From Candidatus Magasanikiibacteriota bacterium (GTDB lineage: Bacteria; Patescibacteriota; Patescibacteriia; Magasanikbacterales; JACTTX01): a stretch of DNA of 64,000 bases. The stretch lies in the NCBI GenBank assembly GCA_015661005.1, contig JACTTX010000002.1:856-64855 (forward strand), written 5' to 3'. A program made the translations under genes and the position numbers. The notes beneath the pieces were generated by a model. The model saw nothing but the letters and a program-made list of their open reading frames with translations. It ran no database searches and had not been told where the DNA came from. Below, in pieces: positions 6,615 to 32,857 of this stretch. Position 1 is the first letter of the stretch; each line of letters begins with the position of its first letter.

Positions 6615-7192
6615 ACCGTTTGTTTTCTCCGTAACTGTTGAAGCGCTGCAAATGTTGCTCGCACATTATTAACCTTGTTCTTTCCACCCATAATTTTGCT
6701 GGAAATATTCGGCACACCAGCCAATTCCAGCACCACCCGAACCGCCCCGCCAGCAATAACACCCGATCCTTTTGGCGCCGGCATCAATAAAACTTTAGCC
6801 GCGCCGTCTTTGACAAAAGAGCGGTGCGGAATGGATTCATTGATGAGCGGAACGGTGATCACGCGTTTGCGCGCCTGCCGCGCCGCCTTATTGATGGCAA
6901 TGGACACATCTGCGCCTTTGGCCAAACCATAGCCGACGCGCCCTTTGCGATCACCAATGATAATCAAAGCCCGAAAACGCATCCGCTTGCCGCCTTTGGT
7001 CACGCGCGTCACGCGGGAAAGTTCCAACGTTGCTTGATCAAACTCTTTATCTTCCTGTTCACGATCAAACCCGCCGCGGCGTTCACGCCGTTCACGATCG
7101 CCGCCACCGCCGCCTCCCCGCCCCTGTCCGCCGCCACGTCCTTGTCCCGGTCCGCGTCCGCGCTGATTAAATTGTCGTTGAGGTCCTGGCAT
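6611..7192 (-). CDS. rpsE: 30S ribosomal protein S5 with Gly/Arg-rich N-terminal extension
   Basis: uS5 core VTRVTKGGKRMRFRALIIIGDRKGRVGYGLAKGADVSIAINKA, preceded by a ~60-aa RGG/GGQG low-complexity extension. Confidence 0.9.
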   Translation of the reverse strand: MPGPQRQFNQRGRGPGQGRGGGQGRGGGGGGDRERRERRGGFDREQEDKEFDQATLELSRVTRVTKGGKRMRFRALIIIGDRKGRVGYGLAKGADVSIAINKAARQARKRVITVPLINESIPHRSFVKDGAAKVLLMPAPKGSGVIAGGAVRVVLELAGVPNISSKIMGGKNKVNNVRATFAALQQLRRKQTV

Positions 7193-7227: not shown

Positions 7228-7596
7228 TTAAAATTTCAATCCACCATCGCGGGCGCCGTCGGCTAGGGCGGCGACACGTCCTTGATAAGCAAACCCGCCG
7301 CGATCAAAAACAACAGCGTCAACTCCTTTGGCCAGGGCTTTTTCCGCCAACAACTTCCCGGTCAAATAAGCGGCCGCCACTTTCCCCTTCCGTTCGCCGG
7401 CGTTCCCTTTTAATCCGCGGCTCTCTGCGGCCACCAAAGTTTTTCCAGTAGCATCGTCAATCAATTGCGCCGTAACATAACGCAAACTCCGAAAAACGGC
7501 TAATCGCGGACGGACGGCCGTGCCAATAATCTTGGCGCGCACCCGCTTGTGCCGCCGTTCCCGTTTCATCAATTTTTCTTTGGCCTTTGATTTCAT
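7228..7596 (-). CDS. rplR: 50S ribosomal protein L18
   Basis: uL18 motifs ([18 protein letters not shown]...GFAYQGRV). Start set at the internal ATG (MKSKAKEK, 122 aa) of ORF 7228..7758. Confidence 0.85.
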
Positions 7597-7612
7597 ATTC
7601 CCGCTTAAAACT

Positions 7613-8164
7613 TTACGCCGCTCCGGCCGACTTGGCCGCCTTACCGGCCTTGCGACGAATGACTTCATCCAGATATTTAATACCTTTACCCTTATACGGC
7701 TCCGGCGGACGCAAATGCCGGATTCGCGCCGCCGTTTCCCCAACCAACTGCTTGTCAACGCCGCTCAAAGTAATTATATTCTTCTCAATAACCGCGGCGA
7801 CTCCCGCTGGCAGTTTGAATTCCACCGGATGAGAAAAACCGAGTTCCAGTTTCAAAGCGCTACCTGCCACGGCCACGCGAAAACCAATGCCGTTCACTTC
7901 CAATTTCTTTTCATAACCGGCCGTGACGCCAAGAACCAAATTCTTGACGAGCGCGCCGAACAATCCCCAAAGAGCGCGATTCTTTTTGACCGTCTCATCG
8001 GAAACATGAACATGCAACCCGTCATCTTCTTTAACAACCGTGATATGCGGATGCAAAACCAATTCCAATTTTCCTTTTGGTCCTTGGACGCCAACCTTCC
8101 CATCAGTCAACGTCACGTTGACTCCGGTTGGCACGGCAATTATTTGTTTTCCGATTCTGGACAT
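7613..8164 (-). CDS. rplF: 50S ribosomal protein L6
   Basis: [19 protein letters not shown]...GIGFRV is a uL6 signature; 183 aa. Confidence 0.92.
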
Positions 8165-8165
8165 A

Positions 8166-8555
8166 TTAGTAGACCTCGCAGATCATCTCTCCGCCCAACT
8201 TCTGTTTGTGCGCTTCTTTATTGGTCATCAAACCCTTGGACGTTGAAAGAATAGATATGCCAAACCCGCTCTGCACCACTTTAAGCTCATCCGCCTTAAC
8301 ATAAGCGCGATGCCCGGGCTTGCTGACGCGCTGAATGGAAGTAATGGCTGGCGCGCGTTCCGCATACTTCAGACGAATCCTAATCTGCGCAAATTTATCA
8401 TCCGTTTTTTCCACGCGACCCACATATCCTTCCCGTTCTAAAATCTGCGCGATATTCATTTTTAATTTTGAGTGCGGCAAAACCACCAGCGGCATATGGG
8501 CCTGCTGGGCGTTTCTGATTCTCGTCAACATGTCGGCGATGGGATCGGTCATCAT
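8166..8555 (-). CDS. rpsH: 30S ribosomal protein S8
   Basis: MTDPIADMLTRIRNA is the uS8 N-terminus. Start trimmed to an internal Met of ORF 8166..8672. Confidence 0.88.
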   Translation of the reverse strand: MMTDPIADMLTRIRNAQQAHMPLVVLPHSKLKMNIAQILEREGYVGRVEKTDDKFAQIRIRLKYAERAPAITSIQRVSKPGHRAYVKADELKVVQSGFGISILSTSKGLMTNKEAHKQKLGGEMICEVY

Positions 8556-8557
8556 AT

Positions 8558-8743
8558 TTACCAACTTGATTTTGTAATTCCCGGAATCTCTCCGCGATTG
8601 GCAAGTTCCCGGAAGCAAATGCGGCACATTCCGAAATCGCGCATAAAACCGCGCGCCCGTCCGCAACGCCAACAGCGATGCACAACGCGGGTGCGGAATT
8701 TTGGTTTCTTTTGCGACTTGGAAATTTGTGCTTCAGTTGCCAT
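8558..8743 (-). CDS. rpsZ: 30S ribosomal protein S14 type Z (zinc-binding)
   Basis: 61 aa with CWRCGRARG...CRIC zinc ribbon. Confidence 0.9.
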   Translation of the reverse strand: MATEAQISKSQKKPKFRTRVVHRCWRCGRARGFMRDFGMCRICFRELANRGEIPGITKSSW

Positions 8744-8763
8744 ACAATAATTAATGTTGTCTG

Positions 8764-9312
8764 TTATTTGTTGTTTGTTGTCTGTTGGAATGGAAACCCC
8801 AGGGCTTTGGCCAGCGCCAGACCTTCCGCAGAATTCCTGGCGGTTGTCCGCACCGTCACCTGTACGCCATGGACGGCTTCCACTTCATCCGGACGAATTT
8901 CCGGAAAGGCCAAGTGTTCGGTGAAACCAAGAGAAAAATTTCCTCCGGCATCCATAATCTTTGGCGAGAGACCGCGAAAGTCCCTCACCCGAGGAAAGGT
9001 CACGTGCACGAGCTTCTCCAAAAAGTCGTACATGCGCTTTCCCCGCAAAGTGCATTTGAGGCCAACCACTTGACCCTCGCGCACTTTGAAATTAGAAATG
9101 GATTTACGCGCCTTGGTCTCCGTCGGCTTTTGCCCGCAGATGCGCGTCAAGGTCTTCACGGCCGCGTCCACATTTTTCTGATCCTTGCTCATCTTGCCGA
9201 CGCCAACATGAACCACCACCACCGAAACTTTTGGCGCCTGCATGATGTTTTTGTAACCAAACTCGGCCTGGAGTTTTGGGATGATTTCTTTTTGGTAGCG
9301 TTCTTTCAACAT
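8764..9312 (-). CDS. rplE: 50S ribosomal protein L5
   Basis: MLKERYQKEIIPKLQAEFGYKNIMQAPKV is the uL5 N-terminus. Confidence 0.92.
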   Translation of the reverse strand: MLKERYQKEIIPKLQAEFGYKNIMQAPKVSVVVVHVGVGKMSKDQKNVDAAVKTLTRICGQKPTETKARKSISNFKVREGQVVGLKCTLRGKRMYDFLEKLVHVTFPRVRDFRGLSPKIMDAGGNFSLGFTEHLAFPEIRPDEVEAVHGVQVTVRTTARNSAEGLALAKALGFPFQQTTNNK

Positions 9313-15607: not shown

Positions 15608-16798
15608 TTACTTAATTATCTTCACGACCGCGCCCGCGCCCACGGTTTTGCCGCCTTCGCGAATGGCGAAACGTTGTTTCTCTTCAAGCGCCACCGGCGT
15701 GATCAGCTTGACCGTGATGTCCACCGTGTCGCCGGGCATCACCATTTCCGTGCCGGCCGGCAAGGTTACTTCACCGGTCACGTCTGTGGTGCGCATATAA
15801 AACTGCGGCTTGTAACCGTTCATAAACGGCTTGTGACGTCCGCCTTCCTCTTTGGTCAGCGCATAAACCTGCGTTTCAAATTCCGTGTGCGGTGTCACAC
15901 TTCCCGGCTTGGCCAAAACCATGCCGCGTTCCACTTCATCTTTCTTGGTGCCACGCAACAAGAGTCCGGCGTTGTCACCAGCGCGACCTTCATCCAACTG
16001 CTTATTGAACATTTCAATGCCGGTCACCACGGTTTTGCGCGTTTCCGCCAAACCGACGATTTCCACTTCTTCATTGATATTAATCTTTCCGCGCTCAATA
16101 CGTCCGGTTACCACCGTGCCGCGGCCTTCAATGGAGAAGACATCTTCAATCGGCATGAGGAACGGTTTGTCTACATCGCGCTGTGGTTCAGGAATGTATG
16201 TATCCAGAGTGCTGATCAAATCCAAAATTGGTTTGGAAGCGACTTCATCCGAGGGATTCTCCAGCGCTTTCAAAGCCGAACCGCGGATGATTGGCGTGGT
16301 GTCCCCAGGGAATTGGTATTTTTTCAAAAGGTCTTTGATTTCCTCTTCCACCAAATCAATGAGTTCCGGATCCGACACTTGGTCAACTTTATTCAAAAAT
16401 ACCACGATGTAAGGCACACCAACCTGACGAGCGAGCAAAATGTGCTCACGGGTCTGGGGCATGGGGCCGTCCGCGGCGGAAACCACAAGAATGGCGGCAT
16501 CCATTTGCGCCGCGCCGGTGATCATGTTTTTAACGTAGTCAGCGTGACCCGGACAATCAACGTGCGCATAATGGCGCGCCGCCGACTCATACTCAACGTG
16601 AGCCGTGGCAATGGTGATGCCGCGGGCTTTTTCTTCCGGCGCGGCGTCAATTTCATCAACTTTCTTATCTTGAGCCGTCATGCCGTGGGCCTTCAAAACC
16701 TGAAGAATGGCCGCGGTTAAAGTTGTTTTACCGTGATCAACGTGACCGATCGTGCCCACATTGACGTGGGGCTTGGTGCGTTCAAACTTTCCTGCCAT
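15608..16798 (-). CDS. tuf: elongation factor Tu
   Basis: 396 aa; [11 protein letters not shown]1 motif, [12 protein letters not shown]. Confidence 0.97.
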
Positions 16799-17515: not shown

Positions 17516-17550
17516 AGGCCCGCCCCGCCAGGGGCTGGCCTTTGAAATTT
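17516..17550. terminator. GC-rich hairpin plus T-run, possible intrinsic terminator
   Basis: GGCCCGCCCC-gcca-GGGGCTGGCC stem followed by TTTGAAATTTT, immediately 3' of the NYN gene stop. Confidence 0.4.
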
Positions 17551-18161
17551 TATCGTCTCTGGAAACGATCCATATCTAAGCGATATTTAAAATCGTCGGC
17601 ATACAAAAGTCTCTGAATCACCCCATCTTTTACAGCATCGACAACTTCTCGCCCCACATGTCCGCGGGCACCAAATACATAGGACATCTTACGAAACGCA
17701 TCTCTCAAGTATCTAAGCGCATATACTAAATCGCCATCGCCAGAAAATAAAACAATGTCATCGTACTGATCACGCAAACGTATCAAATCCACTGCCATTT
17801 CAACATCAAAATCGCATTTCTTTTCATACCCGTTCGCCTTCAACGAATCATGAATATATTTTACCGGCTTTGTGATCACTTCAAAGCGATTCATGTTAGC
17901 CCGATTCAAAATACTAGCGGACCACAAAGAAAGTGTCGTTGATCGTTCTTTGGGTCCGAAATCGGAACCATAATAAAAGCGACGTAGTTCTTTATTGCCG
18001 TAGGAAAAAATCTTCACCAACCGCGATAGTTCCTGAATACCAACTTTCCATCCAAGATTTTCCTTCCATTTATCAACATTCCCGAAATCAACCACAACAA
18101 TAATGCGTTCCTGTTTTTGCGTAAACGAGTTAAGAAAAGTTGTAATCTCCGCAGGATTCAT
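17550..18161 (-). CDS. NYN/LabA-like (PIN-like) domain protein
   Basis: IIVVVDFGNV N-terminal acidic motif and the DIVLFSGDGDLVYALRYL 'SGDGD' motif of the LabA/NYN (DUF88) family. AT-rich gene. Confidence 0.6.
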   Translation of the reverse strand: MNPAEITTFLNSFTQKQERIIVVVDFGNVDKWKENLGWKVGIQELSRLVKIFSYGNKELRRFYYGSDFGPKERSTTLSLWSASILNRANMNRFEVITKPVKYIHDSLKANGYEKKCDFDVEMAVDLIRLRDQYDDIVLFSGDGDLVYALRYLRDAFRKMSYVFGARGHVGREVVDAVKDGVIQRLLYADDFKYRLDMDRFQRR

Positions 18162-18212: not shown

Positions 18213-19376
18213 TCAAAACAACGGCGCCGGAATGCCGAGATTCAGTGATTTAATGTCCGTTACATTTAACGGAATGGCGCCGGTGATGGCTTCCCAACCG
18301 TTTGGCGTCTGTTTTACATAGACACGCGCGACATCATCTCCCGCATAGGTCTGCACACCAACGCGAGCGTAGGATCCCAAAATTTGTTCCGTGTGGGCAA
18401 AGGCTTTTTGTTTGTACTCCGGGTCAGCGTTAATTTTTGCTTGCGCCGCTTTTTCCATTTTTTGTTTCTCGCCGGAATCAAGCTCATCGGTTTGATCGCG
18501 ATACAAAATCATTTCCGACGGCAAACGATAATCACCGGTTGATTTCCAATCATTTAATTTCCAAAGCAGAGTGCCGTCTTTTTGATAATTCAAGGAGGCC
18601 GCGCCGAGAACTTTTTCCGTTCCAACAATGCGAAAATTCACGGAAGAATTGTTTGGAACGGTGAACTCGCCGCTCATATCTCCTTCCAAAGTGCGAATGG
18701 CCGGAGCCGCGGCGGATAAAACCGCCACTAATTTGCCGCTGAATCTTGTCCCGGCCTGTTGGCTGTTCAAGACAACGGAATTGGTGGCGGGCGCGCCGTC
18801 AAAAGTCGTAACTTCAAGACCCGTCCATTTGCCGACGTATTTTTCCGGCGCAATGATGGCTTCTGCCGATGGAACCGTTGGCGCCGCCGCCGCTGATTTT
18901 TCCGCAATGGACGCAAAAACGCCGCGTGAGTCCGCATCATCCGTCACATACTCGGCATAAAAACGGTACGACGGTAAAATTTTGCGCGCCGTTTTTACGA
19001 TTTCCGGTTTGGCGGCCTTTTCAAAATCCGTTCGCGCGTCTTGGTTGTCCGCCTTGTCCGGCACAATGTAGATCCAAAGATGATTTTTATCTAAACCCTC
19101 ACCCGAAAAAATCCGAAAAGTATTTATTTTCATTGAAGTCACCCACGATGGATTGGCCGCCAGCGCATAACCCCAATACTTCGGGAGATTGATGGTGGAT
19201 GATTCACCGTAAGAATCGTCAAAAAAATCAACGCGCTCCCCGACTTCAGCGCTTGGCGCCGCGCTGGCCGCCGCCGGACTCTTTGACGGTTCAGTGGTTG
19301 GGCCGGTTTTCCCGCATCCGGCGCCAAGGAGCATCAACATTGTAAACGCGCTAACCAATAAAAATATTTTTTTCAT
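18213..19376 (-). CDS. lipoprotein, hypothetical
   Basis: Signal peptide with lipobox LLGAGC, then an Ala/Pro/Ser linker. Confidence 0.6.
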   Translation of the reverse strand: MKKIFLLVSAFTMLMLLGAGCGKTGPTTEPSKSPAAASAAPSAEVGERVDFFDDSYGESSTINLPKYWGYALAANPSWVTSMKINTFRIFSGEGLDKNHLWIYIVPDKADNQDARTDFEKAAKPEIVKTARKILPSYRFYAEYVTDDADSRGVFASIAEKSAAAAPTVPSAEAIIAPEKYVGKWTGLEVTTFDGAPATNSVVLNSQQAGTRFSGKLVAVLSAAAPAIRTLEGDMSGEFTVPNNSSVNFRIVGTEKVLGAASLNYQKDGTLLWKLNDWKSTGDYRLPSEMILYRDQTDELDSGEKQKMEKAAQAKINADPEYKQKAFAHTEQILGSYARVGVQTYAGDDVARVYVKQTPNGWEAITGAIPLNVTDIKSLNLGIPAPLF

Positions 19377-19492
19377 AATTTTTTGATCAAAATTATTCGC
19401 GCCTTCTTGTCGGCTTTTTTCTTTAATTTATTTGCGGCAACTAATCCTCCGGTTCCGCCGCCTAAAATGATGACTGTTTTTTGATCGGCCAT
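19373..19492 (-). pseudogene. remnant (39 codons) of an FAD/NAD(P)-binding oxidoreductase N-terminus (sulfide:quinone oxidoreductase / NDH-2-like)
   Basis: MADQKTVIILGGGTGGLVAANKLKKK is a Rossmann GxGxxG dinucleotide-binding start. It ends after 39 codons with a TGA that overlaps the lipoprotein ATG, and its start overlaps the pyrD stop. Confidence 0.5.
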
Positions 19493-19494
19493 AG

Positions 19495-20556
19495 TTATTG
19501 ATTAATCCCTTTATTTATTTCTCCGATAAGCTGAGGGCCTTCGTAAATCATTCCTGTTATCAATTGAATCAAGTCCGCTCCTGCGCTCAATCTTTCTCGC
19601 GCATCGTCTGCCGAGAAAATGCCGCCACAACCGACAATCACCACATTCTTACCAAAGACATCCCTGGTGTGCTTAATGAGTCTTTTCGAATTTTCGGCCG
19701 TCGGTTTGCCGCTAAAATTGCCTTTTACGTCTTTAACTCTGAAAATTTCTTTCTTGTCAAACGCCTGATTGTTTCTGTCTTTGACAAGATTAGAAAAAAT
19801 AAAACCACGAATGCCATTCTCTAAGGCCGAGCGTACCAACGTATCACTTTTGTCAAAATCGATTTCATTTGGCATTTTTACGAATATAGGTTGTGTTATA
19901 CCGCAAGAAGCCACAGCTTGGACAAGCTCCTTAAAATTTTTTAGATTAGAAAATGATTCCGACATTACCGCGTTAGGACAGCTTATATTCAGTTCAAAAT
20001 ATTTGACATAGGGTTTATCTTTGAATATGCGAAAAGTCTCCAAATAGTCATCTATGGCTTTGTTGATAGTGTTGACATCTGGAACATTGGAACTCCCCAC
20101 GCTTATACCGATCAAATGCCCCTCTAATCTTTTCCCATCTAAACGCTTGGCAACAGCTTCTGCTCCATCTGATTTAAAACCTTTATTCACCAAAATCGAT
20201 TTTGATCGTGGAAGTCGCGCAAGACGCGGCGGCTTGTTCCCCGCATATTTTTGCGCCGTTACTGTTCCCACTGTATTAAAACCAAACCCCACATGCCTCA
20301 TAACTTTTGCTAAATGTCCATTATAATCAAAACCAGCCGCCAGACCAACAAAACTTTCAAATTCCAAGCCCAAAATATTCTTTTTGATAGTTTTCTCTCC
20401 GCGCGGCAATAAAAAGCCTAGCGGCCATTTCCGATTCTCAAGACCTTCACCGATTTGCGTCACCATATTATGAACAAACTCGGCATCCAATTGGAAAAGC
20501 GCGGGCTTGATGAGATTTTTATACAAAACGCCGACTATTTTATTGTTCATATTCAA
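19495..20556 (-). CDS. pyrD: dihydroorotate dehydrogenase (quinone), class 2
   Basis: Close parallel to E. coli PyrD: KPALFQLDAEFVH, GLEFESFVGLAAGFDYNG, GFGFNTVGTVTAQKYAGNKPPRLARL, ELNISCPN, IVGCGGIFSADDARERLSAGADLIQLITGMIYEGPQLIGEI. Confidence 0.85.
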   Translation of the reverse strand: MNMNNKIVGVLYKNLIKPALFQLDAEFVHNMVTQIGEGLENRKWPLGFLLPRGEKTIKKNILGLEFESFVGLAAGFDYNGHLAKVMRHVGFGFNTVGTVTAQKYAGNKPPRLARLPRSKSILVNKGFKSDGAEAVAKRLDGKRLEGHLIGISVGSSNVPDVNTINKAIDDYLETFRIFKDKPYVKYFELNISCPNAVMSESFSNLKNFKELVQAVASCGITQPIFVKMPNEIDFDKSDTLVRSALENGIRGFIFSNLVKDRNNQAFDKKEIFRVKDVKGNFSGKPTAENSKRLIKHTRDVFGKNVVIVGCGGIFSADDARERLSAGADLIQLITGMIYEGPQLIGEINKGINQ

Positions 20557-20557
20557 T

Positions 20558-20908
20558 TTAAAATGTTAAAACTTTATCACTTTCCTTGATCAAGTTTGCC
20601 AGATCGCTCATGTGTCCCACAACAATTCCATCAATCAGTTTTTCTCGGCTTATACCACAAACTTTGAGACAGCTGGAACAGGCGACAAAAGGAACATTTT
20701 TTGCGAGCAATTCTTTCGTCAGCTCTTCCAAATTATATTCCTTTCCTTTCGCCTCTTGGTTTTCTTTACCAACATCCACGCCGTCTTCCAAGAGAAAAAT
20801 TTTAACTTTTACATCTTGGTCTAATAATTCACCGACAAGCCGTAGCGCGTTCCACGCTTTATCGTTTTTGTAGGGAAGCTCATTGATAATAATAGTAATT
20901 GTTTGCAT
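20558..20908 (-). CDS. DsrE/DsrF/TusD-like sulfur-relay family protein
   Basis: 116 aa; IIINELPYKNDKAWNALRLV...FLLEDGV...VACSSCLKVCGI matches the DsrE-family pattern with a conserved Cys. Confidence 0.6.
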   Translation of the reverse strand: MQTITIIINELPYKNDKAWNALRLVGELLDQDVKVKIFLLEDGVDVGKENQEAKGKEYNLEELTKELLAKNVPFVACSSCLKVCGISREKLIDGIVVGHMSDLANLIKESDKVLTF

Positions 20909-20912
20909 AGCG

Positions 20913-21251
20913 TTAAAATTTTTCTAATAATTTACCGTCGGCTTCCAGTTGGTCTTTCAGGGCTTTTCTTAAAGCATCATAAGCCACAAGAATTTTAGGA
21001 TTGGCGAGGGAATAGAGAATAGCGACGCCATCCCGCCGAGTTTTAACGATGTTTTGCTGACGCATTAAGCTCAGGTGTTGGGAAACATTGGCTTTCATAA
21101 TACCAAGCTTTTCAGCCATTTTAGAAACGCCCATTTCTTTTTCATCACGAAGCAAATCAATGATCTCGAGTCTCTTGGGATGAGAGAGCGTTTTACGTAC
21201 CTCGGCGTGAAGCTCAAAAATTCTTTTGTCCAGATGGTTTTTATCAGTCAT
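20913..21251 (-). CDS. ArsR/SmtB-family transcriptional regulator (no cysteines)
   Basis: HPKRLEIIDLL...VSKMAEKLGIMKANVSQHLSLMRQQNIV...RDG..ILYSL winged-HTH. It has no Cys and no alpha5 His cluster, so a metal or persulfide sensor is unlikely. Confidence 0.8.
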   Translation of the reverse strand: MTDKNHLDKRIFELHAEVRKTLSHPKRLEIIDLLRDEKEMGVSKMAEKLGIMKANVSQHLSLMRQQNIVKTRRDGVAILYSLANPKILVAYDALRKALKDQLEADGKLLEKF

Positions 21252-21540
21252 AATTATCTATTTGCAGAGTTTCGCATATATGATATATTGTAAGTATATG
21301 AAATAAAATGCCAACCAAGTTTATCCTGCCAATGAATAATATTTTGCCAATCAATATAAACATTCGACGTTTTATTAAAAATATCTTCAAGTTCTTTGAT
21401 GACCCATGGAAACAACTCTGCCAATCTTTCAATTCTTTTTGTCTTTGGAACAAACTTACATCTAAAACGCGAACATTATAGCCCGCGCACCTTTTTTTGC
21501 AAACAATTTTTTGCCAATCGCCCCGAATGTAAATCGCGCC

Positions 21541-23619
21541 TTATTTTTTCTTTCCTTCAATCACTTGCTGGGCAACATTGTTGGGCACTTCGGCGTAATG
21601 AGAAAATTCCATGGAGTATGAACCGCGGCCTTGAGTGGCGCTCCGCAATTCCGTGGCGTAACCGAACATTTCGGCCAGTGGCACCTGTGCGTCCACCACT
21701 TTAATGCCAACGCGATCGCGCATTTCCTGAATTTGTCCGCGTTTGGAATTCAAATTGCCAATAACGTCTCCCATAAATTGTTCCGGGATCAAAACTTCCA
21801 CTTTCATCATTGGCTCCAGCAATACCAAACCGGCGCGCTTGGCGCCCTCCTGAAAAGCCATGGAACCGGCAATTTTAAAAGCCGCTTCCGAGGAGTCCAC
21901 CTCATGATACGTTCCGTCATAAACGGCAACGCGAGCGTCAACCAAAGGATAGCCGGCCAAAACGCCTTTTTCCATTGCTTCTTTGATGCCTTTTTGAATG
22001 GCCGGAATATATTCGCGCGGAATGGCGCCGCCTTTGATCTCATCAACAAATTCAAAACCTGTTCCGCGCGCCATTGATTCCACGCGCAACCAGCAATGCC
22101 CGTACTGTCCGCGGCCGCCGGACTGTTTGATGTACTTCCCTTCCGCTTCCGCCGTCCCCTTGACGGTTTCTTTATACGCCACCTGCGGCGTGCCGACATT
22201 GGCTTCCACTTTGAATTCCCGTTTCATCCGGTCAACAATAATATCCAAATGCAACTCACCCATGCCGGAAATAATTGTTTGCAAGGTCTCTTCATCTGAA
22301 CGCACGCGGAAAGTGGGGTCTTCTTCCGCCAATTTGGAAAGAGCCATGCCCATCTTTTCCTGATCCTGTTTAGTTTTCGGTTCAATCGCCAGAGAAATAA
22401 CCGGCTCCGGAAACTTTATCTCTTCCAAAATAACACGATGGTCTTCATCCGAAAGAGTGTGGCCGGTGGCCGTATTTTTCAAACCAACGGCGGCCGCGAT
22501 TTCTCCGGCGTAAACATCCGTCACATCTTCCCGCGTGTTGGCGTGAAGCCGCACGATGCGCCCGATCCGTTCCTTTTCACCATTGGTGGTGTTCAAAACG
22601 TAAGATCCAGCGGAAAGATGTCCGGCGTAGACGCGAAAAAAAGTCAGTTTGCCGACAAAAGGATCCGAGGCCACTTTGAAAGCCAAGGCCGTGAACGGCT
22701 CATCGTCCGAAGCCGGACGCGCCACCACTTTTGTTTTGTCCTTGGGATCAAAAGCCAAAGTGGGAGGAATGTCCAAGGGCGAGGGCAAATAATCCTTGAC
22801 CGCGTCTAACATAAATTGCACCCCTTTATTTTTAAGGGCGCTACCACAGAGCACCGGTACAATTTCAAAGGCGCAAACGGCCTTGCGCAAAACGCGCTTG
22901 AGTTCTTCAAGTATTGGTTCGGTCCCGGCCAAATACTGATTCATCAATACCTCGTCATTCTCCACAATTTTTTCAATCAATCGCGCCCGATATTCTTCAA
23001 CCTTTTCTTTCATATCCGCCGGAACGTCTTCTTCTCTAATGTCTTTGCCCAAATCGTCCAAATAAATGTAGGCCTTGCGGGTCAGCAAATCCACGATTCC
23101 GCGAAAATTGGCTTCGGTGCCAATGGGGAGCTGTAAAGGATAAGCGTTTTTGGTCAAACGATCATGAATGGAAGCCAGATCAGTGTAAAAATCCGCGCCG
23201 GTGCGATCCAATTTATTGATAAAGCAAAGACGGGGAACTTTATAATCATCGGCGTAATGCCAGTTGGTTTCCGATTGCGGCTCAACGCCGGCCACGCCGT
23301 CAAAAATCACGCAAGCGCCGTCCAGCACGCGCAAAGAACGTTTCACTTCCACGGTAAAATCAATATGCCCGGGGGTGTCAATCAAATTAATGCGAATGCC
23401 TTTCCAAAAACAAGTGGTGGCCGCGGCCGTGATGGTGATGCCGCGCTCGCGCTCCTGTTCCATCCAGTCCATGGTGGCTTCCCCTTCATGGACTTCACCG
23501 ATTTTATGTTTCTTACCGGTATAAAATAAAATACGCTCGGAGACCGTGGTCTTGCCGGCGTCAATATGCGCGATGATGCCGATGTTCCTAGTGTTTTCCA
23601 ATGAATATTCTCTGGGCAT
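21541..23619 (-). CDS. fusA: elongation factor G
   Basis: 692 aa; [10 protein letters not shown]1 motif, DTPGHIDF, and EF-G domain IV/V signatures. Confidence 0.97.
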
Positions 23620-25353: not shown

Positions 25354-26145
25354 GTGATAAAACCCTACTTCGATAAACCGAATTTCAAACTCTACCGCGC
25401 TAACAGCATTGACCTGCTGGCTGAACTCCCCGAGAACTCCGTGGATATGATTTTTGCCGACCCGCCCTATCTTCTATCAAACGGCGGTTTTACCGTTCAC
25501 GCCGGTAAAATGGTAAGTGTAAATAAAGGCGAATGGGATGTCAGCAATGGTCTAAAAAAAGATTTTGAATTTCAACTGACATGGATTGAAGCGTGCCGCC
25601 GAGTATTGAAACCTGGCGGCACCATTTGGATTAGTGGCACCTACCACTCAATTTACCAATGCGGCTTTGCGTTGCAGGTTAAACACTTTCATATTCTTAA
25701 TGATATTGCGTGGTTTAAACCAAATGCCTCGCCAAATTTAAGTTGCCGTTTTTTTACGGCTAGCCACGAGACACTTATTTGGGCTCGCAAAGAAAAGAAA
25801 GCCAAACACAAATTTAATTACGAGACAATGAAAAATGGCCATTGGCCAGATGATTTTTTGAAAAAACCCAATCTACAAATGCGCAGTGTGTGGGCTGTAT
25901 ATCCGCCAAAAAGTTCGGAAAAAATCCATGGGAAACATCCGACCCAAAAACCGATTGATTTACTCGTACGTATTATTATGGCCAGCACTGACAGAGGCGA
26001 TGTAATTTTAGATCCTTTTACCGGCTCATCAACGACAGGTTTAGCGGCTATGCTAAACGATCGAAAATTCATCGGGATTGATTTAGAAAAAAAATACCTG
26101 GACTTATCAATCAAACGTTACAACGACTTAAAAAAATTGATATGA
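25354..26145 (+). CDS. type II DNA methyltransferase, beta-class N6-adenine (or N4-cytosine) MTase
   Basis: Motif IV FADPPY at the N-terminus and the AdoMet motif ILDPFTGSSTTG near the C-terminus give the beta-class order. DPPY favours N6-adenine. Strongly AT-rich. Confidence 0.85.
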   Translation: MIKPYFDKPNFKLYRANSIDLLAELPENSVDMIFADPPYLLSNGGFTVHAGKMVSVNKGEWDVSNGLKKDFEFQLTWIEACRRVLKPGGTIWISGTYHSIYQCGFALQVKHFHILNDIAWFKPNASPNLSCRFFTASHETLIWARKEKKAKHKFNYETMKNGHWPDDFLKKPNLQMRSVWAVYPPKSSEKIHGKHPTQKPIDLLVRIIMASTDRGDVILDPFTGSSTTGLAAMLNDRKFIGIDLEKKYLDLSIKRYNDLKKLI

Positions 26146-26666
26146 AAAAACGCGGAAAAGGCGGGGCAAACACACAAACAGGATTAAGATTTGAAAGCAA
26201 AGTTGATTTTTTGACTTTTATAAAAAACCAAGAAAAGTACAGCGTCAAAGGCGCTGTTATTTTTTATGATGGCAAAAAGGTCGGTCTAACTTTTAAAAAA
26301 CACGGATTTTACAAATATCTGGGGGAGAAAGGAATTGATTACAAAGAAATAATTTCACAAAAATTGCTTCCGGATGACGCAATATTTGTTATTGCTAATA
26401 ACACCATGCACATTATTGAAATTAAATTCCAAGAAGGAAGCGGATCAACTGATGAAAAATTACAAACTTGCGATTTTAAAATAAAACAATACAGAAAATT
26501 GTTATCAAGATTGAATGCGGAGGTTAAATATATTTACATCTTGAACGAGTGGTTCAAAAAACCAGGGTACAAAGATGTATTGGACTACATCATCTCCGTT
26601 GAGGGTTGCGCCTACTATTTTAATTATCTGCCTTTGCAAAAAATTGGATTGCCAGTGCCAAAATAA
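26142..26666 (+). CDS. putative type II restriction endonuclease (PD-(D/E)XK)
   Basis: Start overlaps the MTase stop (ATGA). 174 aa with PDDAIFVIANNTMHIIEIK, a PD...EIK nuclease motif. Same AT-rich composition. Confidence 0.5.
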   Translation: MKKRGKGGANTQTGLRFESKVDFLTFIKNQEKYSVKGAVIFYDGKKVGLTFKKHGFYKYLGEKGIDYKEIISQKLLPDDAIFVIANNTMHIIEIKFQEGSGSTDEKLQTCDFKIKQYRKLLSRLNAEVKYIYILNEWFKKPGYKDVLDYIISVEGCAYYFNYLPLQKIGLPVPK

Positions 26667-30462: not shown

Positions 30463-31614
30463 TCACTGGGGTGTTCCGGTGGCGCTCAAACCTGCCGCCG
30501 CGGTCTTGGCGGCCGGACGAATCACCAAATTTTTAGTCAGGTCTTTATAGATAACATCGCCAATGGCCTCAATTTTTCTGAAAACGTAAGCGCCGTCTTT
30601 TTCCACGGTTCCGACCGCCGGCCAAACGCTTTTGAGCTGGTTGTACACATCTGCATCTTTAGAAAGAATAATTGTCGGCACGTTGACGATTTTATATTGA
30701 TTGACCAATCCTTTTCCTTGAGGCGAAGACACATCAACTACTTCACTGTTGGTCACCGCCACGCCCATACTGGATAAAAGGCCATTGTGTTTGGCAGGAT
30801 CATAACATTCATTACACGATTTGTCGGCGAGCATGGTCATTCGCAATTTGCCGAGAATTTTATTTTGCGCCAGATCAAAATATGGCGGGATCATTTGCCG
30901 GAAAACGTAAACGCCGTCGCTTTGCGTTTCACCGATAGTTAAATTTTTAAAGATGTCATAATACTTCACGTCCTCGGAAAGAATGATTTGCGGAAAAGCG
31001 GTAATTTTATATTTTGCCGTCAAACTTTTTCCATCTTCGGAAAAAGGCGACACGGTTTTGGTATCGGCAATAAAAATGCCGGCATTCTTCATTTGATTGA
31101 TGAGCTCGCTCGGCTGCGCACAGCCAACGCATAATTTAGGATCGTTCAAAATAGTAACATAAATTTTTCCGCGCTCGGCGCCGTCTTTGGGATCAATGTA
31201 GACCGGCGGGGTTTTGGTGAAAATAAAATTATTGTTAGCCAGTCGGCCGTTTTGCGCAATAAACCCCGCCAGCTTTTCATTGGTAACGTCTCCGCTCGCC
31301 ACAAAAGTTGGAAGCCGCTCCAGTCCAAAATCCGCCACCAGTTTTTTCCCTTCTTCGCTGTCAAAGATCAGCGTCTTTTCCGCCGTCACTTCCACCGGAA
31401 ACTTTTTAAACGCCGCCACGGCTTTCTGAATATCAAAACAATCTGGACAACTCGGCGTCGTCAATATCTGGAGTGTGATTTTTGCCGGTTGATTTTTTTC
31501 TTCGGCCACTTTGATTTGTTTGCCAATGGCGGTGTTAGTTTGAAAAGAAATAATAGCGCCAGACAGTGCGGCAAGAAAAGCAATCCCAAGTAGCGCGCGA
31601 TTGACAGTGATCAT
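30463..31614 (-). CDS. membrane-anchored protein with three tandem thioredoxin-like CxxC domains
   Basis: Three ~110-aa internal repeats, each with a CxxC (SCPDC, CVGC, CNEC) and a downstream cis-Pro-like motif (LPTFVAS, FPQIIL, VPTIIL). Confidence 0.7.
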   Translation of the reverse strand: MITVNRALLGIAFLAALSGAIISFQTNTAIGKQIKVAEEKNQPAKITLQILTTPSCPDCFDIQKAVAAFKKFPVEVTAEKTLIFDSEEGKKLVADFGLERLPTFVASGDVTNEKLAGFIAQNGRLANNNFIFTKTPPVYIDPKDGAERGKIYVTILNDPKLCVGCAQPSELINQMKNAGIFIADTKTVSPFSEDGKSLTAKYKITAFPQIILSEDVKYYDIFKNLTIGETQSDGVYVFRQMIPPYFDLAQNKILGKLRMTMLADKSCNECYDPAKHNGLLSSMGVAVTNSEVVDVSSPQGKGLVNQYKIVNVPTIILSKDADVYNQLKSVWPAVGTVEKDGAYVFRKIEAIGDVIYKDLTKNLVIRPAAKTAAAGLSATGTPQ

Positions 31615-32432
31615 AAATTATAGGGAATTTTGTGAATCGGATTTAAAATCATTGGCGACTCGGCGGATTGACTTTCCGAACACGGCAAAACGGCAACCGT
31701 TTGCGCTTTTGTTGACGGGACAAAGGCCGCCAGTAAAATCGCGAGTACCATAACGCTCACAAAAATCTTTGTCAAGGTGAGCGGCGCAAATTTCAATCCC
31801 CTGCCTTCCAAAACAGCGATGCGAATGGCAAGAGTTGACTGTTCGGCAAATCCAAAAAATGCGGCCGGTGCGGACGGACGTCCCGAGAGTTTAATCAGAG
31901 CCGAGACCAAAGAAATTTTTCCCTTCTCACCGTTTTGAGCGGCGGCATCAGCGGCCACTTCTCTGGCGGCCAGCCATCTTTTTTCAAAATCCGCCACGAT
32001 TGGCAAAAACCAAAAAGCGGTGCGTGCGGCGTGAAGCAAAGCGCCCATCAGCGGATCATATGATTGCTGATGATGCCGCTCATGAGATAAAACCGCCAGC
32101 AGTTCCGCCTCCGTCAGAACGCTCGCCGCCGAGGTACTCAAATAAATTTGCGGTTTAAAAAATCCAACGCAAAAACATTTTGATTGATCGGACGCAAAAA
32201 TCCGAATATTATTTATTTGCTTGTTTTCAATCAAAGCGGCAAGACGCGGCGGAACCGCCGCCGACGCCAACAATGAGAGTGAGCGCAATAATTTTCCGGT
32301 GGCCAGAACTTGGCGAACCAAAGAAACAATAAAAATTCCTAAAACCGACAATCCGGCCGCCCAACCAACGCCATGCCAAAAATTGCCATGCGTAATCGCG
32401 GAAAAAAAATTGTCACAGCGAGTGATCGCCAT
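31611..32432 (-). CDS. BlaR1/MecR1-like M56 peptidase-domain membrane protein (no sensor domain)
   Basis: HERHHQQ is an HExxH in an M56-like 4-TM context, and the gene lies immediately downstream of a BlaI-family repressor. At 273 aa it lacks a C-terminal sensor domain. Confidence 0.6.
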   Translation of the reverse strand: MAITRCDNFFSAITHGNFWHGVGWAAGLSVLGIFIVSLVRQVLATGKLLRSLSLLASAAVPPRLAALIENKQINNIRIFASDQSKCFCVGFFKPQIYLSTSAASVLTEAELLAVLSHERHHQQSYDPLMGALLHAARTAFWFLPIVADFEKRWLAAREVAADAAAQNGEKGKISLVSALIKLSGRPSAPAAFFGFAEQSTLAIRIAVLEGRGLKFAPLTLTKIFVSVMVLAILLAAFVPSTKAQTVAVLPCSESQSAESPMILNPIHKIPYNL

Positions 32433-32433
32433 A

Positions 32434-32826
32434 TTAACTCCGGCCGCGTTTTAAATCCGCCAACAACTTTTTCAACTTCTTGCGATCAACTTTGTCCGTC
32501 TCTTCCAAAAAACAAGCAATGGCAACCTCTCCGAATTCTTTTCTAATCCGTCCGAGCGTTTCTCCGGCCAGCGTCCGATAAAATTCTTGCCGCGTCAGAC
32601 GCGGACAAAAAACATGCTGACCGGCGCGAATATTTTTTTTGAGCACGCCTTTCTTAACCAGCCGATTCATAATGGTCATGATGGTGGTATAGGCGACATC
32701 AATTTTTTTATGCAAATGATCAACGACGTCCCGCACCGAACCCCCCTCCGGACGCGACCACAAAATATCCAGGATGTCTTTTTCCCGTTCGCCAAGCAAG
32801 CGTCCAACATGAGACGGTGTCCGCAT
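32434..32826 (-). CDS. BlaI/MecI/CopY-family transcriptional repressor
   Basis: LGEREKDILDILWSRPEGGSVRDVVDHL...YTTIMTIMNRLVKKGVLKK winged helix of the penicillinase-repressor family. No C-terminal Cys cluster, so BlaI-like rather than CopY-like. Confidence 0.8.
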   Translation of the reverse strand: MRTPSHVGRLLGEREKDILDILWSRPEGGSVRDVVDHLHKKIDVAYTTIMTIMNRLVKKGVLKKNIRAGQHVFCPRLTRQEFYRTLAGETLGRIRKEFGEVAIACFLEETDKVDRKKLKKLLADLKRGRS

Positions 32827-32837
32827 ATAAAAATTTA

Positions 32838-32857
32838 TCTACTACATTATGTAGAAG
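32838..32857. promoter_or_regulatory. putative BlaI-family operator (palindrome CTACA-TTA-TGTAG)
   Basis: The 13-bp perfect dyad contains TACA/TGTA half-sites like bla/mec/cop boxes. It sits 12 bp upstream of the blaI-like start and shares the 11-mer TACTACATTAT with 33311..33325. Confidence 0.5.

What the first reader, a model, noticed from the sequence alone, without database searches (positions are those of the whole stretch)
19373..21251. Quinone-dependent dihydroorotate dehydrogenase in an ArsR-DsrE context next to a sulfide:quinone-oxidoreductase-like remnant
ArsR plus DsrE/TusD-like plus SQR-type flavoprotein is a recurring sulfide/persulfide-handling arrangement. Here the flavoprotein survives only as a 39-codon Rossmann start (MADQKTVIILGGGTGG...), and the intact enzyme in the operon is a class-2 PyrD. 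Class-2 PyrD is a membrane-associated, quinone-reducing enzyme that would be unexpected in a quinone-poor CPR-type organism. It could be a pyrimidine salvage or biosynthesis remnant, or it could have been co-opted as a quinone- or electron-acceptor-linked redox enzyme. The ArsR here has no cysteines, so its signal is not a thiol or metal.
Basis: partly seen in the sequence, partly recalled or inferred. Interest (0 to 1): 0.5.

Follow-up and report, generated by a model that had tools for sequence, protein, structure and literature searches.

The report
Imported DHODH inside a broken sulfide operon
A small imported gene cassette in a CPR-type bacterium carries a regulator, a sulfur-carrier protein, an intact dihydroorotate dehydrogenase of an unusual cysteine-type variant, and the 39-codon stump of a sulfide:quinone reductase; the cassette itself is ordinary gene shuffling, but the enzyme's family is under-described.

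Summary
On the minus strand, tightly packed, lie arsR (20913-21251), dsrE (20558-20908), pyrD (19495-20550) and a 39-codon flavoprotein start (19373-19492). The stump is a real SQR remnant: it is 76-82% identical to the N-termini of intact 385-aa type III SQR genes that sit directly after near-identical arsR-dsrE pairs in metagenome contigs. None of those relatives has pyrD, so pyrD was inserted just behind the dsrE stop codon. The block is a roughly 1.9-kb low-GC import (0.40 against 0.49) between fusA and a host lipoprotein gene.

PyrD is class-2-like in fold and N-terminal domain. It carries Cys where class 2 has the catalytic Ser, and Tyr for the conserved Lys. This Cys type is widespread in CPR and DPANN, so it is not unexpected there.

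The family rarely sits with pyr genes. In 14 of 80 loci it is fused or adjacent to VKOR, and in 11 of 80 it follows a PNPOx-like flavoprotein. One 74%-identical relative lies in a pyrF-pyrE-pyrD row, and pyrF-pyrE pairs look common in Parcubacteria.

Most likely PyrD is a working DHODH feeding a late-half UMP route. The electron acceptor is unresolved. This ArsR copy has lost the single Cys its orthologues keep.

The parts
21287..21314 (-). Promoter-like site, TTGGCA-16 nt-TACAAT, upstream of arsR. The -35 part lies at the left edge of the imported block.
   Evidence: Consensus scan, 10 of 12 matches. Relatives have TTGACA-17-TATACT here. Similarity between the window and its relatives stops just upstream of the -10 region.
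21252..21312 (-). Conserved 5' leader and probable operator of the arsR-dsrE module. This marks the left end of the imported block.
   Evidence: About 60 nt are nearly invariant across all 7 aligned loci; the window differs from the consensus at one position (alignment A2). The near-palindrome ATATGC-N8-GCAAAT was noted by eye and not tested.
20913..21251 (-). arsR: ArsR/SmtB-family repressor with no Cys. It has Arg19 where all orthologues have their only Cys.
   Evidence: Pfam HTH_5 and NF033788. The closest solved structures are Rv0081, NolR, PagR and BigR. Cys19 is present in 12 of 12 orthologues at 77-95% identity. dN/dS is 0.06-0.15.
20558..20908 (-). dsrE: YchN-like DsrE-family protein. 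Cys77, Cys80 and Cys84 are conserved.
   Evidence: Pfam DsrE 2e-22. E. coli YchN 1jx7 at E 4e-18. The three Cys are present in all 16 aligned sequences. dN/dS is 0.10-0.15.
19495..20550 (-). pyrD: class-2-like dihydroorotate dehydrogenase of the CPR/DPANN Cys/Tyr type (NISCPN, GFDY). It was inserted directly behind dsrE with the 7-nt leader ATTGAAT. An alternative TTG start lies at 20556.
   Evidence: Family scores. PDB alignments. Residue mapping on E. coli PyrD. AlphaFold2 model with pLDDT 88. Foldseek TM 0.82-0.89 to class-2 DHODHs. Junctions. dN/dS is 0.14-0.24.
19373..19492 (-). sqr': the 39-codon N-terminal stump of a type III sulfide:quinone oxidoreductase. Homology ends after ...ARIILI at about codon 36.
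   Evidence: 76-82% identity to the starts of intact SQR genes in L096, L099, L100 and L110. The intact gene in L100 is 385 aa and carries FKCPAAPYE. The L088 relative scores 278 bits on NF049943.
18213..19376 (-). Host lipoprotein gene (lipobox LLGAGC). Its ATG overlaps the stump's stop codon. It marks the right edge of the imported block and is not part of the module.
   Evidence: ORF and sequence. GC 0.50 against 0.40 for the block. No Pfam hit. No relative beside any other arsR-dsrE module.
21541..23619 (-). fusA (EF-G), the host flank on the left. tuf lies at 15608-16798, so the str operon is interrupted by about 4.7 kb.
   Evidence: ORF translations read directly. GC 0.50.

Best explanation
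Shown: window 19377-21312 is a roughly 1.9-kb, low-GC piece of a mobile arsR-dsrE-(sqr or DUF302) sulfur module that circulates among CPR-like metagenome contigs and MAGs. It lies between fusA and a host lipoprotein gene. Within that module, pyrD is a secondary insertion placed exactly behind the dsrE stop codon. The same ATTGAAT leader occurs in two other lineages, and there dsrE has decayed while pyrD has not. The sqr gene is cut at about codon 37 at the right-hand junction, so the sulfide-oxidising part is dead. The regulator has lost the only Cys its family conserves. arsR, dsrE and pyrD are intact, packed without a terminator, and show purifying selection in comparisons with relatives.

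Shown: PyrD belongs to a large CPR/DPANN clade. The clade has the class-2 fold, the N-terminal two-helix domain and the quinone-site His and Arg. It carries Cys instead of the catalytic Ser and Tyr instead of the conserved Lys.

Inferred: the enzyme oxidises dihydroorotate to orotate at the inner face of the membrane. This supplies the PyrE-PyrF pair, which appears common in Parcubacteria, and so gives a late-half route to UMP in an organism that probably lacks the early steps. It is transcribed from the arsR promoter simply because that is where it landed.

Inferred, weakly: the electron acceptor is not an endogenous respiratory quinone pool. It may be a scavenged quinone or a non-quinone acceptor such as a flavin or fumarate, by analogy with the Cys-type class-II enzymes of anaerobic fungi.
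For: - Architecture and identities.
- Low GC: the block is 0.396, against 0.488 for the window and 0.50 for fusA and the lipoprotein gene.
- Independent assembly L001 agrees at 99.9% over 3574 nt.
- Of the 42 DsrE loci, 7 have dsrE followed by an intact SQR gene (an orthologous arsR was found upstream in 4 of them), 15 have DUF302 after dsrE (arsR in 10, including two 3' remnants), and none has pyrD.
- Junction sequences: reference dsrE-TAA-TT-ATG-sqr; window dsrE-TAA-ATTGAAT-ATG-pyrD...TAA-CT-ATG-sqr'. L003 and L093 have the same leader with 53 and 10 remaining dsrE codons.
- The window and L003 share only 1224 nt, running from dsrE codon 65 to the pyrD stop.
- dN/dS: PyrD 0.14-0.24, DsrE 0.10-0.15, ArsR 0.06-0.15.
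- Promoter-like site, and no terminator-like site inside the operon.
- Class-2 fold: PDB phmmer 1e-38 against 1e-9 for class 1; model pLDDT 88 with helices 3-20 and 25-38; TM 0.82-0.89 to E. coli, human and M. tuberculosis DHODH.
- Family residues across 198 sequences: Cys at E. coli S175 in 194; His19 in 190; Arg102 in 192; Lys217, Asn172 and Asn177 kept; Lys66 replaced by Tyr in 174.
- 120 of the best 150 cluster representatives have Cys at this position.
- Pyrimidine link: L092 has pyrF'-pyrE-pyrD on one strand, with PyrD 74% identical. The PyrE-like protein has 3328 relatives, the best 120 at 68-76% identity, and follows OMP decarboxylase in 3 of 3 contexts checked.
- Literature: fungal class-II DHODs with Cys in place of Ser work anaerobically, and one uses free FMN/FAD rather than quinone (PMC8520639). 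93% of Patescibacteria genomes lack de novo nucleotide synthesis (bioRxiv 10.64898/2026.06.21.733656). CPR genomes in one soil study lack quinone biosynthesis genes (PMC8407418).
Against: - No pyrE, pyrF or other pyr gene lies in the 64-kb window, or within 8 kb of pyrD in any of the 80 GTDB loci. Whether this genome has PyrE and PyrF is unknown.
- The pyrF in L092 looks internally deleted (148 aa), so even that operon may be decaying.
- The family's recurrent partners are redox proteins, not pyr genes: VKOR fused or adjacent in 14 of 80 loci, and a PNPOx-like gene adjacent in 11 of 80.
- Replacement of the conserved Lys by Tyr, and a shifted Asn in the N-x-x-G-F loop, could mean an altered substrate.
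- The dsrE-pyrD junction is kept in the window and in two of its three closest relatives, as decayed dsrE remnants (L003, L093; none was detected in L089). This could reflect function rather than shared descent.
- The dN/dS values are pairwise, so they mostly reflect selection in the past or in other lineages.
Confidence: 0.55

Rival explanations
1. Co-opted redox enzyme. The CPR Cys-type PyrD is not there for pyrimidines. It is a membrane flavoprotein that links a thiol, sulfur or quinone redox process to the DHO/orotate couple or to a shared scavenged quinone. In this operon it works with DsrE, and originally with SQR. Elsewhere it works with VKOR or a PNPOx-like flavoprotein.
For: - VKOR-PyrD fusions occur in six distinct 50%-identity clusters and as single ORFs in 12 GTDB loci. 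VKOR is fused or directly upstream in 14 of 80 loci and present in 21 of 80.
- A PNPOx-like gene lies directly upstream in 11 of 80 loci.
- No pyr genes lie near pyrD in the 80 loci.
- pyrD sits just behind dsrE, or behind a decayed remnant of it, in the window and in two of its three closest relatives.
- SQR, VKOR and class-2 DHODH all use membrane quinone (established knowledge).
- 93% of the phylum lacks de novo nucleotide synthesis.
Against: - dsrE decays to 53 codons, 10 codons or no detectable remnant in the closest relatives while pyrD stays intact, so PyrD does not depend on DsrE.
- The DsrE link is confined to one shallow subclade (at least 84% identity). None of the 42 DsrE loci has pyrD.
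- There is a pyrF'-pyrE-pyrD row at 74% identity.
- All the pyrimidine-binding Asn residues and Lys217 are kept.
- Thermodynamics (reasoned, not computed): quinol cannot reduce orotate. VKOR, SQR and DHODH would all reduce quinone, and no oxidiser is known.
Confidence: 0.25
2. Ordinary quinone-dependent pyrD. The organism has a complete pyrimidine pathway and makes or uses menaquinone, and the operon context is irrelevant.
For: - The protein passes two NCBIfam class-2 equivalog cutoffs.
- It has the class-2 fold and N-terminal domain.
- The quinone-site His and Arg are conserved.
- About 7% of Patescibacteria do have de novo synthesis.
Against: - Cys replaces the catalytic Ser and Tyr replaces the conserved Lys.
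- The NCBIfam cutoffs are passed by less than 8 bits.
- There are no pyr, men or ubi genes in the 64 kb.
- CPR genomes are reported to lack quinone biosynthesis.
- The gene is a recent import in a foreign cassette.
Confidence: 0.1
3. Decaying debris. The whole cassette, PyrD included, is a non-functional hitchhiker on its way to loss.
For: - sqr is truncated.
- ArsR lost its conserved Cys.
- The native -35 box was replaced at the junction.
- dsrE is eroded in sister lineages.
Against: - Three ORFs are intact, with dN/dS of 0.06-0.24.
- pyrD is intact in every lineage examined.
- All catalytic and FMN-binding residues are present.
- A usable promoter-like site exists.
- The arrangement is identical in a second sample.
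Confidence: 0.07

Closest known systems
Class 2 (quinone-dependent, membrane-associated) dihydroorotate dehydrogenase, e.g. E. coli PyrD (1f76) and human DHODH
   Same: - TIM-barrel fold and the N-terminal two-helix domain (TM 0.82-0.89).
- The His19 and Arg102 equivalents, Lys217, Asn172 and Asn177 are kept.
- Best sequence matches in the PDB (1e-38).
   Different: - Cys instead of the catalytic Ser175.
- Tyr instead of Lys66.
- Ser instead of Asn139.
- A shifted Asn in the N-x-x-G-F loop.
- Host organisms that reportedly lack quinone synthesis.
- The gene is usually not next to pyr genes.
Cys-type class-II DHODs of anaerobic or facultative fungi (A. robustus ArUra9, S. japonicus SjUra9, D. 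bruxellensis DbUra9; PMC8520639)
   Same: - A class-2 scaffold with the catalytic Ser replaced by Cys.
- Occurrence in organisms or conditions without aerobic respiration.
- SjUra9 and DbUra9 also keep the quinone-site residues.
   Different: - These are eukaryotic enzymes with a demonstrated pyrimidine role.
- ArUra9 lacks the N-terminal domain, which the CPR enzyme keeps.
- The Lys-to-Tyr change and the VKOR fusions are not described there.
- No sequence comparison with the fungal proteins was run here.
ArsR/BigR/SqrR-type regulator + DsrE/TusA-type sulfur carrier + SQR sulfide-detoxification operons
   Same: Regulator, DsrE-family protein and SQR lie in one tight operon. The form with all three genes detected is seen in L096, L099, L100 and L119. 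L100 also has a second DsrE-like gene downstream.
   Different: - The regulator has one Cys, in helix 1, not the two-Cys BigR/SqrR arrangement, and none at all in the window.
- The SQR here is reduced to 39 codons.
- A DHODH gene is interposed.
- The hosts look like CPR.
Bacterial VKOR homologues (DsbB-like thiol oxidases), often fused to a thioredoxin-like domain
   Same: In the family's VKOR-PyrD fusions the VKOR domain has the loop Cys pair and the CXXC motif.
   Different: The fusion partner is a cytoplasmic-side flavoenzyme, not a periplasmic thioredoxin fold. No VKOR gene was found in the window. No paper describing the fusion was found.

Membership tests
Class 2 dihydroorotate dehydrogenase | DHO_dh TIM-barrel domain with FMN- and pyrimidine-binding Asn and Lys residues | tested here: met
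   Pfam DHO_dh E 1e-51. The Asn172, Asn177 and Lys217 equivalents are present in at least 192 of 198 sequences.
Class 2 dihydroorotate dehydrogenase | N-terminal two-helix domain that forms the quinone tunnel and membrane anchor | tested here: met
   The alignment to E. coli PyrD starts at its residue 2. The model has helices 3-20 and 25-38. Foldseek aligns 343 columns against the 336-residue 1f76.
Class 2 dihydroorotate dehydrogenase | Serine as catalytic base (E. coli Ser175, human Ser215) | tested here: not met
   NISCPN aligns with NVSSPN/NISSPN. Cys is present in 194 of 198 family members and in 120 of the best 150 cluster representatives.
Class 2 dihydroorotate dehydrogenase | Quinone-site His and Arg (E. 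coli His19 and Arg102) | tested here: met
   His in 190 of 198 and Arg in 192 of 198 sequences. That these residues bind quinone or inhibitors is taken from my own knowledge of published structures.
Class 2 dihydroorotate dehydrogenase | Conserved Lys of the GLAAGxDK motif (E. coli Lys66) | tested here: not met
   Tyr in 174 of 198 sequences; the rest have Asn, Trp, His or a gap. More distant Cys-type relatives keep Lys.
Class 2 dihydroorotate dehydrogenase | Curated family score cutoffs | tested here: met
   NF003652 scores 268.8 against 267 and TIGR01036 scores 207.5 against 200. Both pass narrowly. Eight other class-2 equivalog models are not reached.
Class 2 dihydroorotate dehydrogenase | DHO oxidation with quinone as acceptor | not testable with these tools
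   This needs an enzyme assay.
Class 1 (1A/1B) dihydroorotate dehydrogenase | Cysteine catalytic base | tested here: met
   Cys191 in the 351-aa numbering.
Class 1 (1A/1B) dihydroorotate dehydrogenase | Soluble enzyme without the N-terminal domain; closest sequence similarity to class 1 | tested here: not met
   The N-terminal domain is present. Class 1 structures match at only 1e-9 to 1e-6, against 1e-38 for class 2. The class 1 NCBIfam models score far below their cutoffs.
Type III sulfide:quinone oxidoreductase (the 39-codon ORF) | N-terminal FAD Rossmann motif homologous to SQR | tested here: met
   76-82% identity to intact SQR N-termini in the same operon position. Relatives score 278 bits on NF049943 and match SQR structures at 1e-42.
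Type III sulfide:quinone oxidoreductase (the 39-codon ORF) | Full-length protein with the redox-active Cys residues (FKCPAAPYE and the C-terminal Cys) | tested here: not met
   The ORF stops after 39 codons and homology ends at about codon 36. The intact relative is 385 aa.
DsrE/TusD/YchN family | DsrE fold domain and the conserved active-site Cys | tested here: met
   Pfam DsrE 2e-22. YchN 1jx7 at 4e-18, with Cys77 and Cys80 aligned to the YchN Cys residues. Cys77, Cys80 and Cys84 are present in 16 of 16 sequences. The TusD and TusC equivalog cutoffs are not reached, so this is not a Tus or Dsr complex subunit.
ArsR/SmtB regulators that sense metals or persulfide (BigR/SqrR type) | Winged-helix HTH_5 domain | tested here: met
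   HTH_5 at 2.9e-11; NF033788 at 80.5 bits against a cutoff of 55.
ArsR/SmtB regulators that sense metals or persulfide (BigR/SqrR type) | Sensing Cys pair or metal ligands | tested here: not met
   There is no Cys in the window copy. Orthologues have a single Cys19. The BigR model scores 59.7 against a cutoff of 155.

The most novel reading that the evidence does not exclude
The Cys/Tyr-type class-2-like 'PyrD' of CPR and DPANN is mainly a membrane redox module rather than a pyrimidine enzyme. Fused to VKOR, it would let organisms without a respiratory chain re-oxidise the disulfide-forming machinery. This could work with orotate, fumarate or a flavin as the sink, or by sharing a host-derived quinone. 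Its landing beside DsrE and SQR would reflect the same thiol, sulfur and quinone network. That would be a previously undescribed way of running extracytoplasmic thiol oxidation in quinone-less symbionts.
Probability: 0.15. Interest if true: 0.8.

Novelty: new variant of a known kind. Interest (0 to 1): 0.5.

Why it matters
The locus itself is an example of cassette shuffling in CPR genomes. A single gene was dropped precisely behind a stop codon in a mobile sulfur operon, the neighbouring gene was then cut, and the regulator lost its conserved Cys.

The wider point concerns the enzyme. Annotation pipelines call it 'quinone-dependent DHODH', yet it belongs to a large and apparently undescribed CPR/DPANN clade with a class-1-type cysteine base on a class-2 scaffold. 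That clade occurs in organisms reported to lack both quinone synthesis and, mostly, de novo pyrimidine synthesis. It is repeatedly fused to VKOR or paired with a small flavoprotein.

This gives a concrete, cloneable handle on an open question: what membrane dehydrogenases such as DHODH, SQR and VKOR use as electron acceptor in these reduced symbionts. It also bears on whether these organisms run a late-half route from DHO or orotate to UMP on host-derived intermediates.

Tried and rejected
- Exact look-up of the 353-aa TTG-start PyrD found nothing. The recorded gene starts at the ATG, giving 351 aa.
- The 39-aa fragment was too short for the big protein search. A 41-aa version gave one hit only, a frameshifted SQR in L088. 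The decisive evidence came instead from the DsrE-anchored metagenome scan.
- I expected DsrE or ArsR to be general neighbours of CPR PyrD. This was rejected: they occur only in the window's own shallow subclade.
- I looked for pyrE and pyrF near PyrD in the 80 GTDB loci and in the window. None was found.
- Three literature searches for DHODH in CPR/Patescibacteria and one for a VKOR-DHODH fusion found nothing relevant.
- Assembly chimera was considered and rejected on L001.
- I considered that the 56-aa ORF at 21254-21424 is a conserved gene of the module. Its apparent conservation is only the shared 51-nt arsR leader. Its likeness to an NYN N-terminus is weak.
- The first MAFFT run on 199 sequences timed out and was rerun with fast settings. 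That alignment is unreliable around E. coli Asn246, so I make no claim there.

Full report
**1. What is there**

Between fusA (21541-23619) and tuf (15608-16798), all on the minus strand, the usual str-operon continuity is broken by about 4.7 kb. The left part of that insert is the finding. It contains arsR (20913-21251), dsrE (20558-20908), pyrD (19495-20556, or 20550 from the ATG) and a 39-codon ORF (19373-19492). The genes are separated by only a few nucleotides. The short ORF's TGA overlaps the ATG of a 387-aa lipoprotein gene (18213-19376).

Family searches confirm the three identities:
- ArsR/SmtB: HTH_5 at 2.9e-11.
- DsrE: 2e-22.
- DHO_dh: 1e-51.

PyrD just passes two class-2 NCBIfam cutoffs. 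The short ORF gives only weak Rossmann matches, with type III SQR on top.

The block has GC 0.396, against 0.488 for the window and 0.50 for both flanking genes. An independent assembly from another sample (L001) matches 3574 nt across every junction at 99.9% identity. The arrangement is therefore real and not a chimera.

The organism looks like a CPR bacterium. The nearest named PyrD relatives are Paceibacterota. S5 is followed directly by L15 with no uL30 gene between them (read by eye), which is a trait reported for CPR (abstract of PMC9297842).

**2. The stump is an SQR, and ArsR-DsrE-SQR is the native operon**

A metagenome scan seeded with DsrE returned 42 loci. In these, dsrE is followed either by a full-length SQR gene (L096, L099, L100, L101, L106, L110, L119) or by a DUF302 gene (15 loci). 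An orthologous arsR, where its sequence was compared at 77-95% identity, precedes dsrE in 16 loci where both genes were detected.

The window's 39 residues are 76-82% identical to the N-termini of those SQRs. Compare MADQKTVIILGGGTGGLVAANKLKKKADKKARIILIKKL* with MADQKTIVILGGGTGGLVAANELKKRAGEKARIILIDKNQHHIYAPSF... in L099. Homology ends after 'ILI'.

The intact gene in L100 is 385 aa and carries the FKCPAAPYE motif. A more distant relative, L088, scores 278 bits on the type III SQR model and 1e-42 against human SQOR.

The 'recurring arrangement' is confirmed.

**3. pyrD is a secondary insertion**

None of the 42 DsrE loci contains pyrD. The junctions are as follows:
- Reference: dsrE-TAA-TT-ATG-sqr.
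- Window: dsrE-TAA-ATTGAAT-ATG-pyrD...TAA-CT-ATG-sqr'.

The closest PyrD relatives are 84-87% identical and lie at other genomic places. They carry the traces of the same event:
- L003: the last 53 codons of dsrE, the same ATTGAAT leader, pyrD, then DUF302.
- L093: the last 10 dsrE codons, then pyrD, then a DUF302 start.
- L089: pyrD followed by DUF302, with no dsrE remnant detected.

The window and L003 share exactly 1224 nt at 89%, running from dsrE codon 65 to the pyrD stop.

The module sits in unrelated genomic contexts in different contigs, so it is mobile.

On the left, about 60 nt upstream of arsR are nearly invariant across all loci. Similarity then stops just where relatives have their -35 box. 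The window still offers TTGGCA-16-TACAAT.

The imported piece therefore runs from about 21312 to about 19377. It ends inside sqr, against a host gene of normal GC.

**4. State of the three intact genes**

Pairwise dN/dS against relatives is 0.06-0.15 for ArsR, 0.10-0.15 for DsrE and 0.14-0.24 for PyrD.

DsrE is closest to E. coli YchN (1jx7, 4e-18) and keeps Cys77, Cys80 and Cys84 in all 16 sequences.

ArsR is closest to the non-metal members Rv0081, NolR and PagR, and then to BigR. All 12 orthologues have one Cys (Cys19...HAKVCKTL...). The window copy, and L001, have Arg there.

It is a lineage-specific loss in a family that may well sense through that Cys. It coincides with loss of the SQR. 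That link is inference.

**5. What kind of PyrD**

The PDB sequence search puts class-2 enzymes far ahead of class 1 (1e-38 against 1e-9). An AlphaFold2 model (pLDDT 88.4, pTM 0.89) has the two N-terminal helices. It superposes on E. coli, human and M. tuberculosis DHODH with TM 0.82-0.89.

At the catalytic-base position, however, the protein has Cys: NISCPN against NISSPN or NVSSPN. I mapped 198 family sequences on E. coli PyrD, fetched:

| E. coli position | In the family |
|---|---|
| Ser175 | Cys in 194 of 198 |
| His19 | kept in 190 |
| Arg102 | kept in 192 |
| Asn172, Asn177, Lys217 | kept |
| Lys66 | Tyr in 174 |
| Asn139 | Ser in 192 |

In a search of 1.84 billion cluster representatives, 120 of the best 150 have Cys. 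Ser types appear only below about 190 bits. The nearest ~40 mostly (31 of the 37 in which the motif could be read) also have GFDY in place of GFDK.

Named members are all CPR: Paceibacterota, Woesebacteria, Amesbacteria, WWE3, Saccharimonadia, Peribacteraceae and Magasanikbacteria. The GTDB scan also returned three DPANN genomes.

The enzyme is thus common in CPR, not an oddity there. It is not a canonical class-2 enzyme either.

The nearest documented analogue is the set of fungal class-II DHODs that carry Cys instead of Ser and support anaerobic, respiration-independent pyrimidine synthesis. One of them uses free FMN or FAD and not quinone (PMC8520639). I found no paper on DHODH in CPR.

**6. 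What it is for**

Evidence for a pyrimidine role:
- A 74%-identical relative lies in a pyrF'-pyrE-pyrD row (L092).
- That PyrE-like protein has 3328 relatives, the best 120 at 68-76% identity and the named ones all from Parcubacteria-type lineages. It follows an OMP decarboxylase gene in all three contexts examined.

The last two steps to UMP thus look common in these organisms, even though 93% of Patescibacteria genomes are scored as lacking the de novo pathway. A PyrD would extend that late-half route back to dihydroorotate.

Evidence against, or at least complicating:
- No pyr gene lies within 8 kb of pyrD in 80 GTDB loci, or anywhere in the 64-kb window.
- The recurrent partners of the family are redox proteins. 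An N-terminal VKOR domain (Pfam 1e-16 to 1e-26, with loop Cys pair and CXXC) is fused or directly upstream in 14 of 80 loci and present in 21 of 80. All of these are in the 40-48%-identity half of the family.
- A PNPOx-like flavoprotein gene is directly upstream in 11 of 80 loci, in the 55-65%-identity half.
- PAP2-PyrD and PyrD-cytidylyltransferase fusions also occur.
- CPR genomes are reported to lack quinone biosynthesis (PMC8407418).

The VKOR fusions argue that the clade works at the membrane, next to a quinone-using protein. The Cys base and the fungal precedent argue that the acceptor need not be a respiratory quinone. I cannot decide between a scavenged quinone, a flavin or flavoprotein, and fumarate.

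**7. Verdict on mechanism**

Most likely, at about 0.55: an intact DHODH, imported as a passenger in a fragment of a sulfur operon. It is expressed from the arsR promoter and makes orotate for PyrE and PyrF.

The DsrE link is probably historical. dsrE decays in sister lineages while pyrD does not.

The co-opted redox reading stays at about 0.25 because of the fusions. An ordinary quinone-dependent pyrD in a full pathway is at about 0.1. Pure debris is at about 0.07.

**8. Novelty and score**

The cassette is ordinary mosaic evolution. The enzyme clade is a new variant of a known kind as far as the searchable literature goes: Cys/Tyr-type, class-2-like, CPR/DPANN-wide, often fused to VKOR. It offers a direct experimental route to the question of electron acceptors in these symbionts. 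Interest 0.5.

Noticed in passing
L058, L061, L062, L063, L064, L071, L072, L078, L079, L082, L085, L087 (single ORFs spanning roughly 7500-9100 in most of these loci); proteins P0128-P0131, P0133, P0137: VKOR-PyrD fusion proteins of 490-590 aa. An N-terminal vitamin-K-epoxide-reductase domain, with its loop Cys pair and CXXC, is joined to a complete Cys/Tyr-type class-2-like DHODH. VKOR is fused or directly upstream in 14 of 80 GTDB loci. No description was found in the literature search.
   Followed up: partly
L012, L015, L017, L019, L021, L022, L023, L025, L031, L040, L053, immediately upstream of pyrD: A gene for a PNPOx-like (FMN-binding split-barrel) protein of about 156-163 aa sits directly upstream of pyrD in 11 of 80 loci. 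In six it is co-directional, apparently abutting or slightly overlapping the pyrD start (exact gaps depend on the uncertain start calls); in five it is divergent. It is a possible electron-transfer partner.
   Followed up: partly
window 20913-21251, codon 19: The ArsR has Arg19 where all 12 orthologues (77-95% identical) have the family's only cysteine. The loss coincides with truncation of the SQR gene in the same operon.
   Followed up: yes
L137-L141 and L092:744-1855: An OMP decarboxylase gene followed by a PyrE-like phosphoribosyltransferase gene appears common in Parcubacteria. The PRT has 3328 relatives, the best 120 at 68-76% identity. In L092 the pyrF is only 148 aa and seems to have lost its middle part.
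   Followed up: partly
L096:6354-7520, L099:1743-2900, L100:1622-2779, L110:418-1570: Intact type III SQR genes (385 aa in L100) occur in contigs whose other genes resemble this CPR genome. This is another quinone-reducing enzyme in organisms said to lack quinone synthesis. In L100 it is followed by a small membrane protein and a second DsrE-like gene.
   Followed up: partly
window 21254-21424 (-): A 56-codon ORF between fusA and arsR weakly resembles the N-terminus of the NYN-domain protein encoded at 17550-18161 (7 of 17 identical at the same position). It may be a gene remnant. Its last 17 codons are simply the conserved arsR leader.
   Followed up: partly
window 6186-7192 (-): Ribosomal protein S5 is followed directly by L15, overlapping by 4 nt, with no uL30 gene between them. 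This fits a CPR origin.
   Followed up: no
window 30463-35622 (-): A cluster of probable extracytoplasmic thiol-redox and related genes. It includes a 383-aa protein with two weak thioredoxin-like hits, a BlaR1-like M56 peptidase with a BlaI-like repressor, a CcdA/DsbD-like membrane protein (by eye), and small Cys-containing membrane proteins. No VKOR was detected by homology to the fused domains.
   Followed up: partly
window 62814-63044 (-); L088:9-344; L003:12096-12167: Small membrane proteins ending in a SHOCT motif (...ILKERFAKGEITEKQFEE). One such gene sits directly upstream of the SQR in L088, and SHOCT fragments follow pyrD-DUF302 in L003 and L089.
   Followed up: no
window 49996-50550 (-) and 25354-26666 (+): A 184-aa ORF with a reverse-transcriptase-like YADD motif, probably a fragment. 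Separately, a DNA methyltransferase-like gene (DPPY motif) followed by a 174-aa ORF, possibly a restriction-modification pair. Both were read by eye only.
   Followed up: no
proteins P0158 and P0140: Further fusions in the Cys-type clade: PAP2 membrane phosphatase-PyrD, and PyrD-cytidylyltransferase-like.
   Followed up: no
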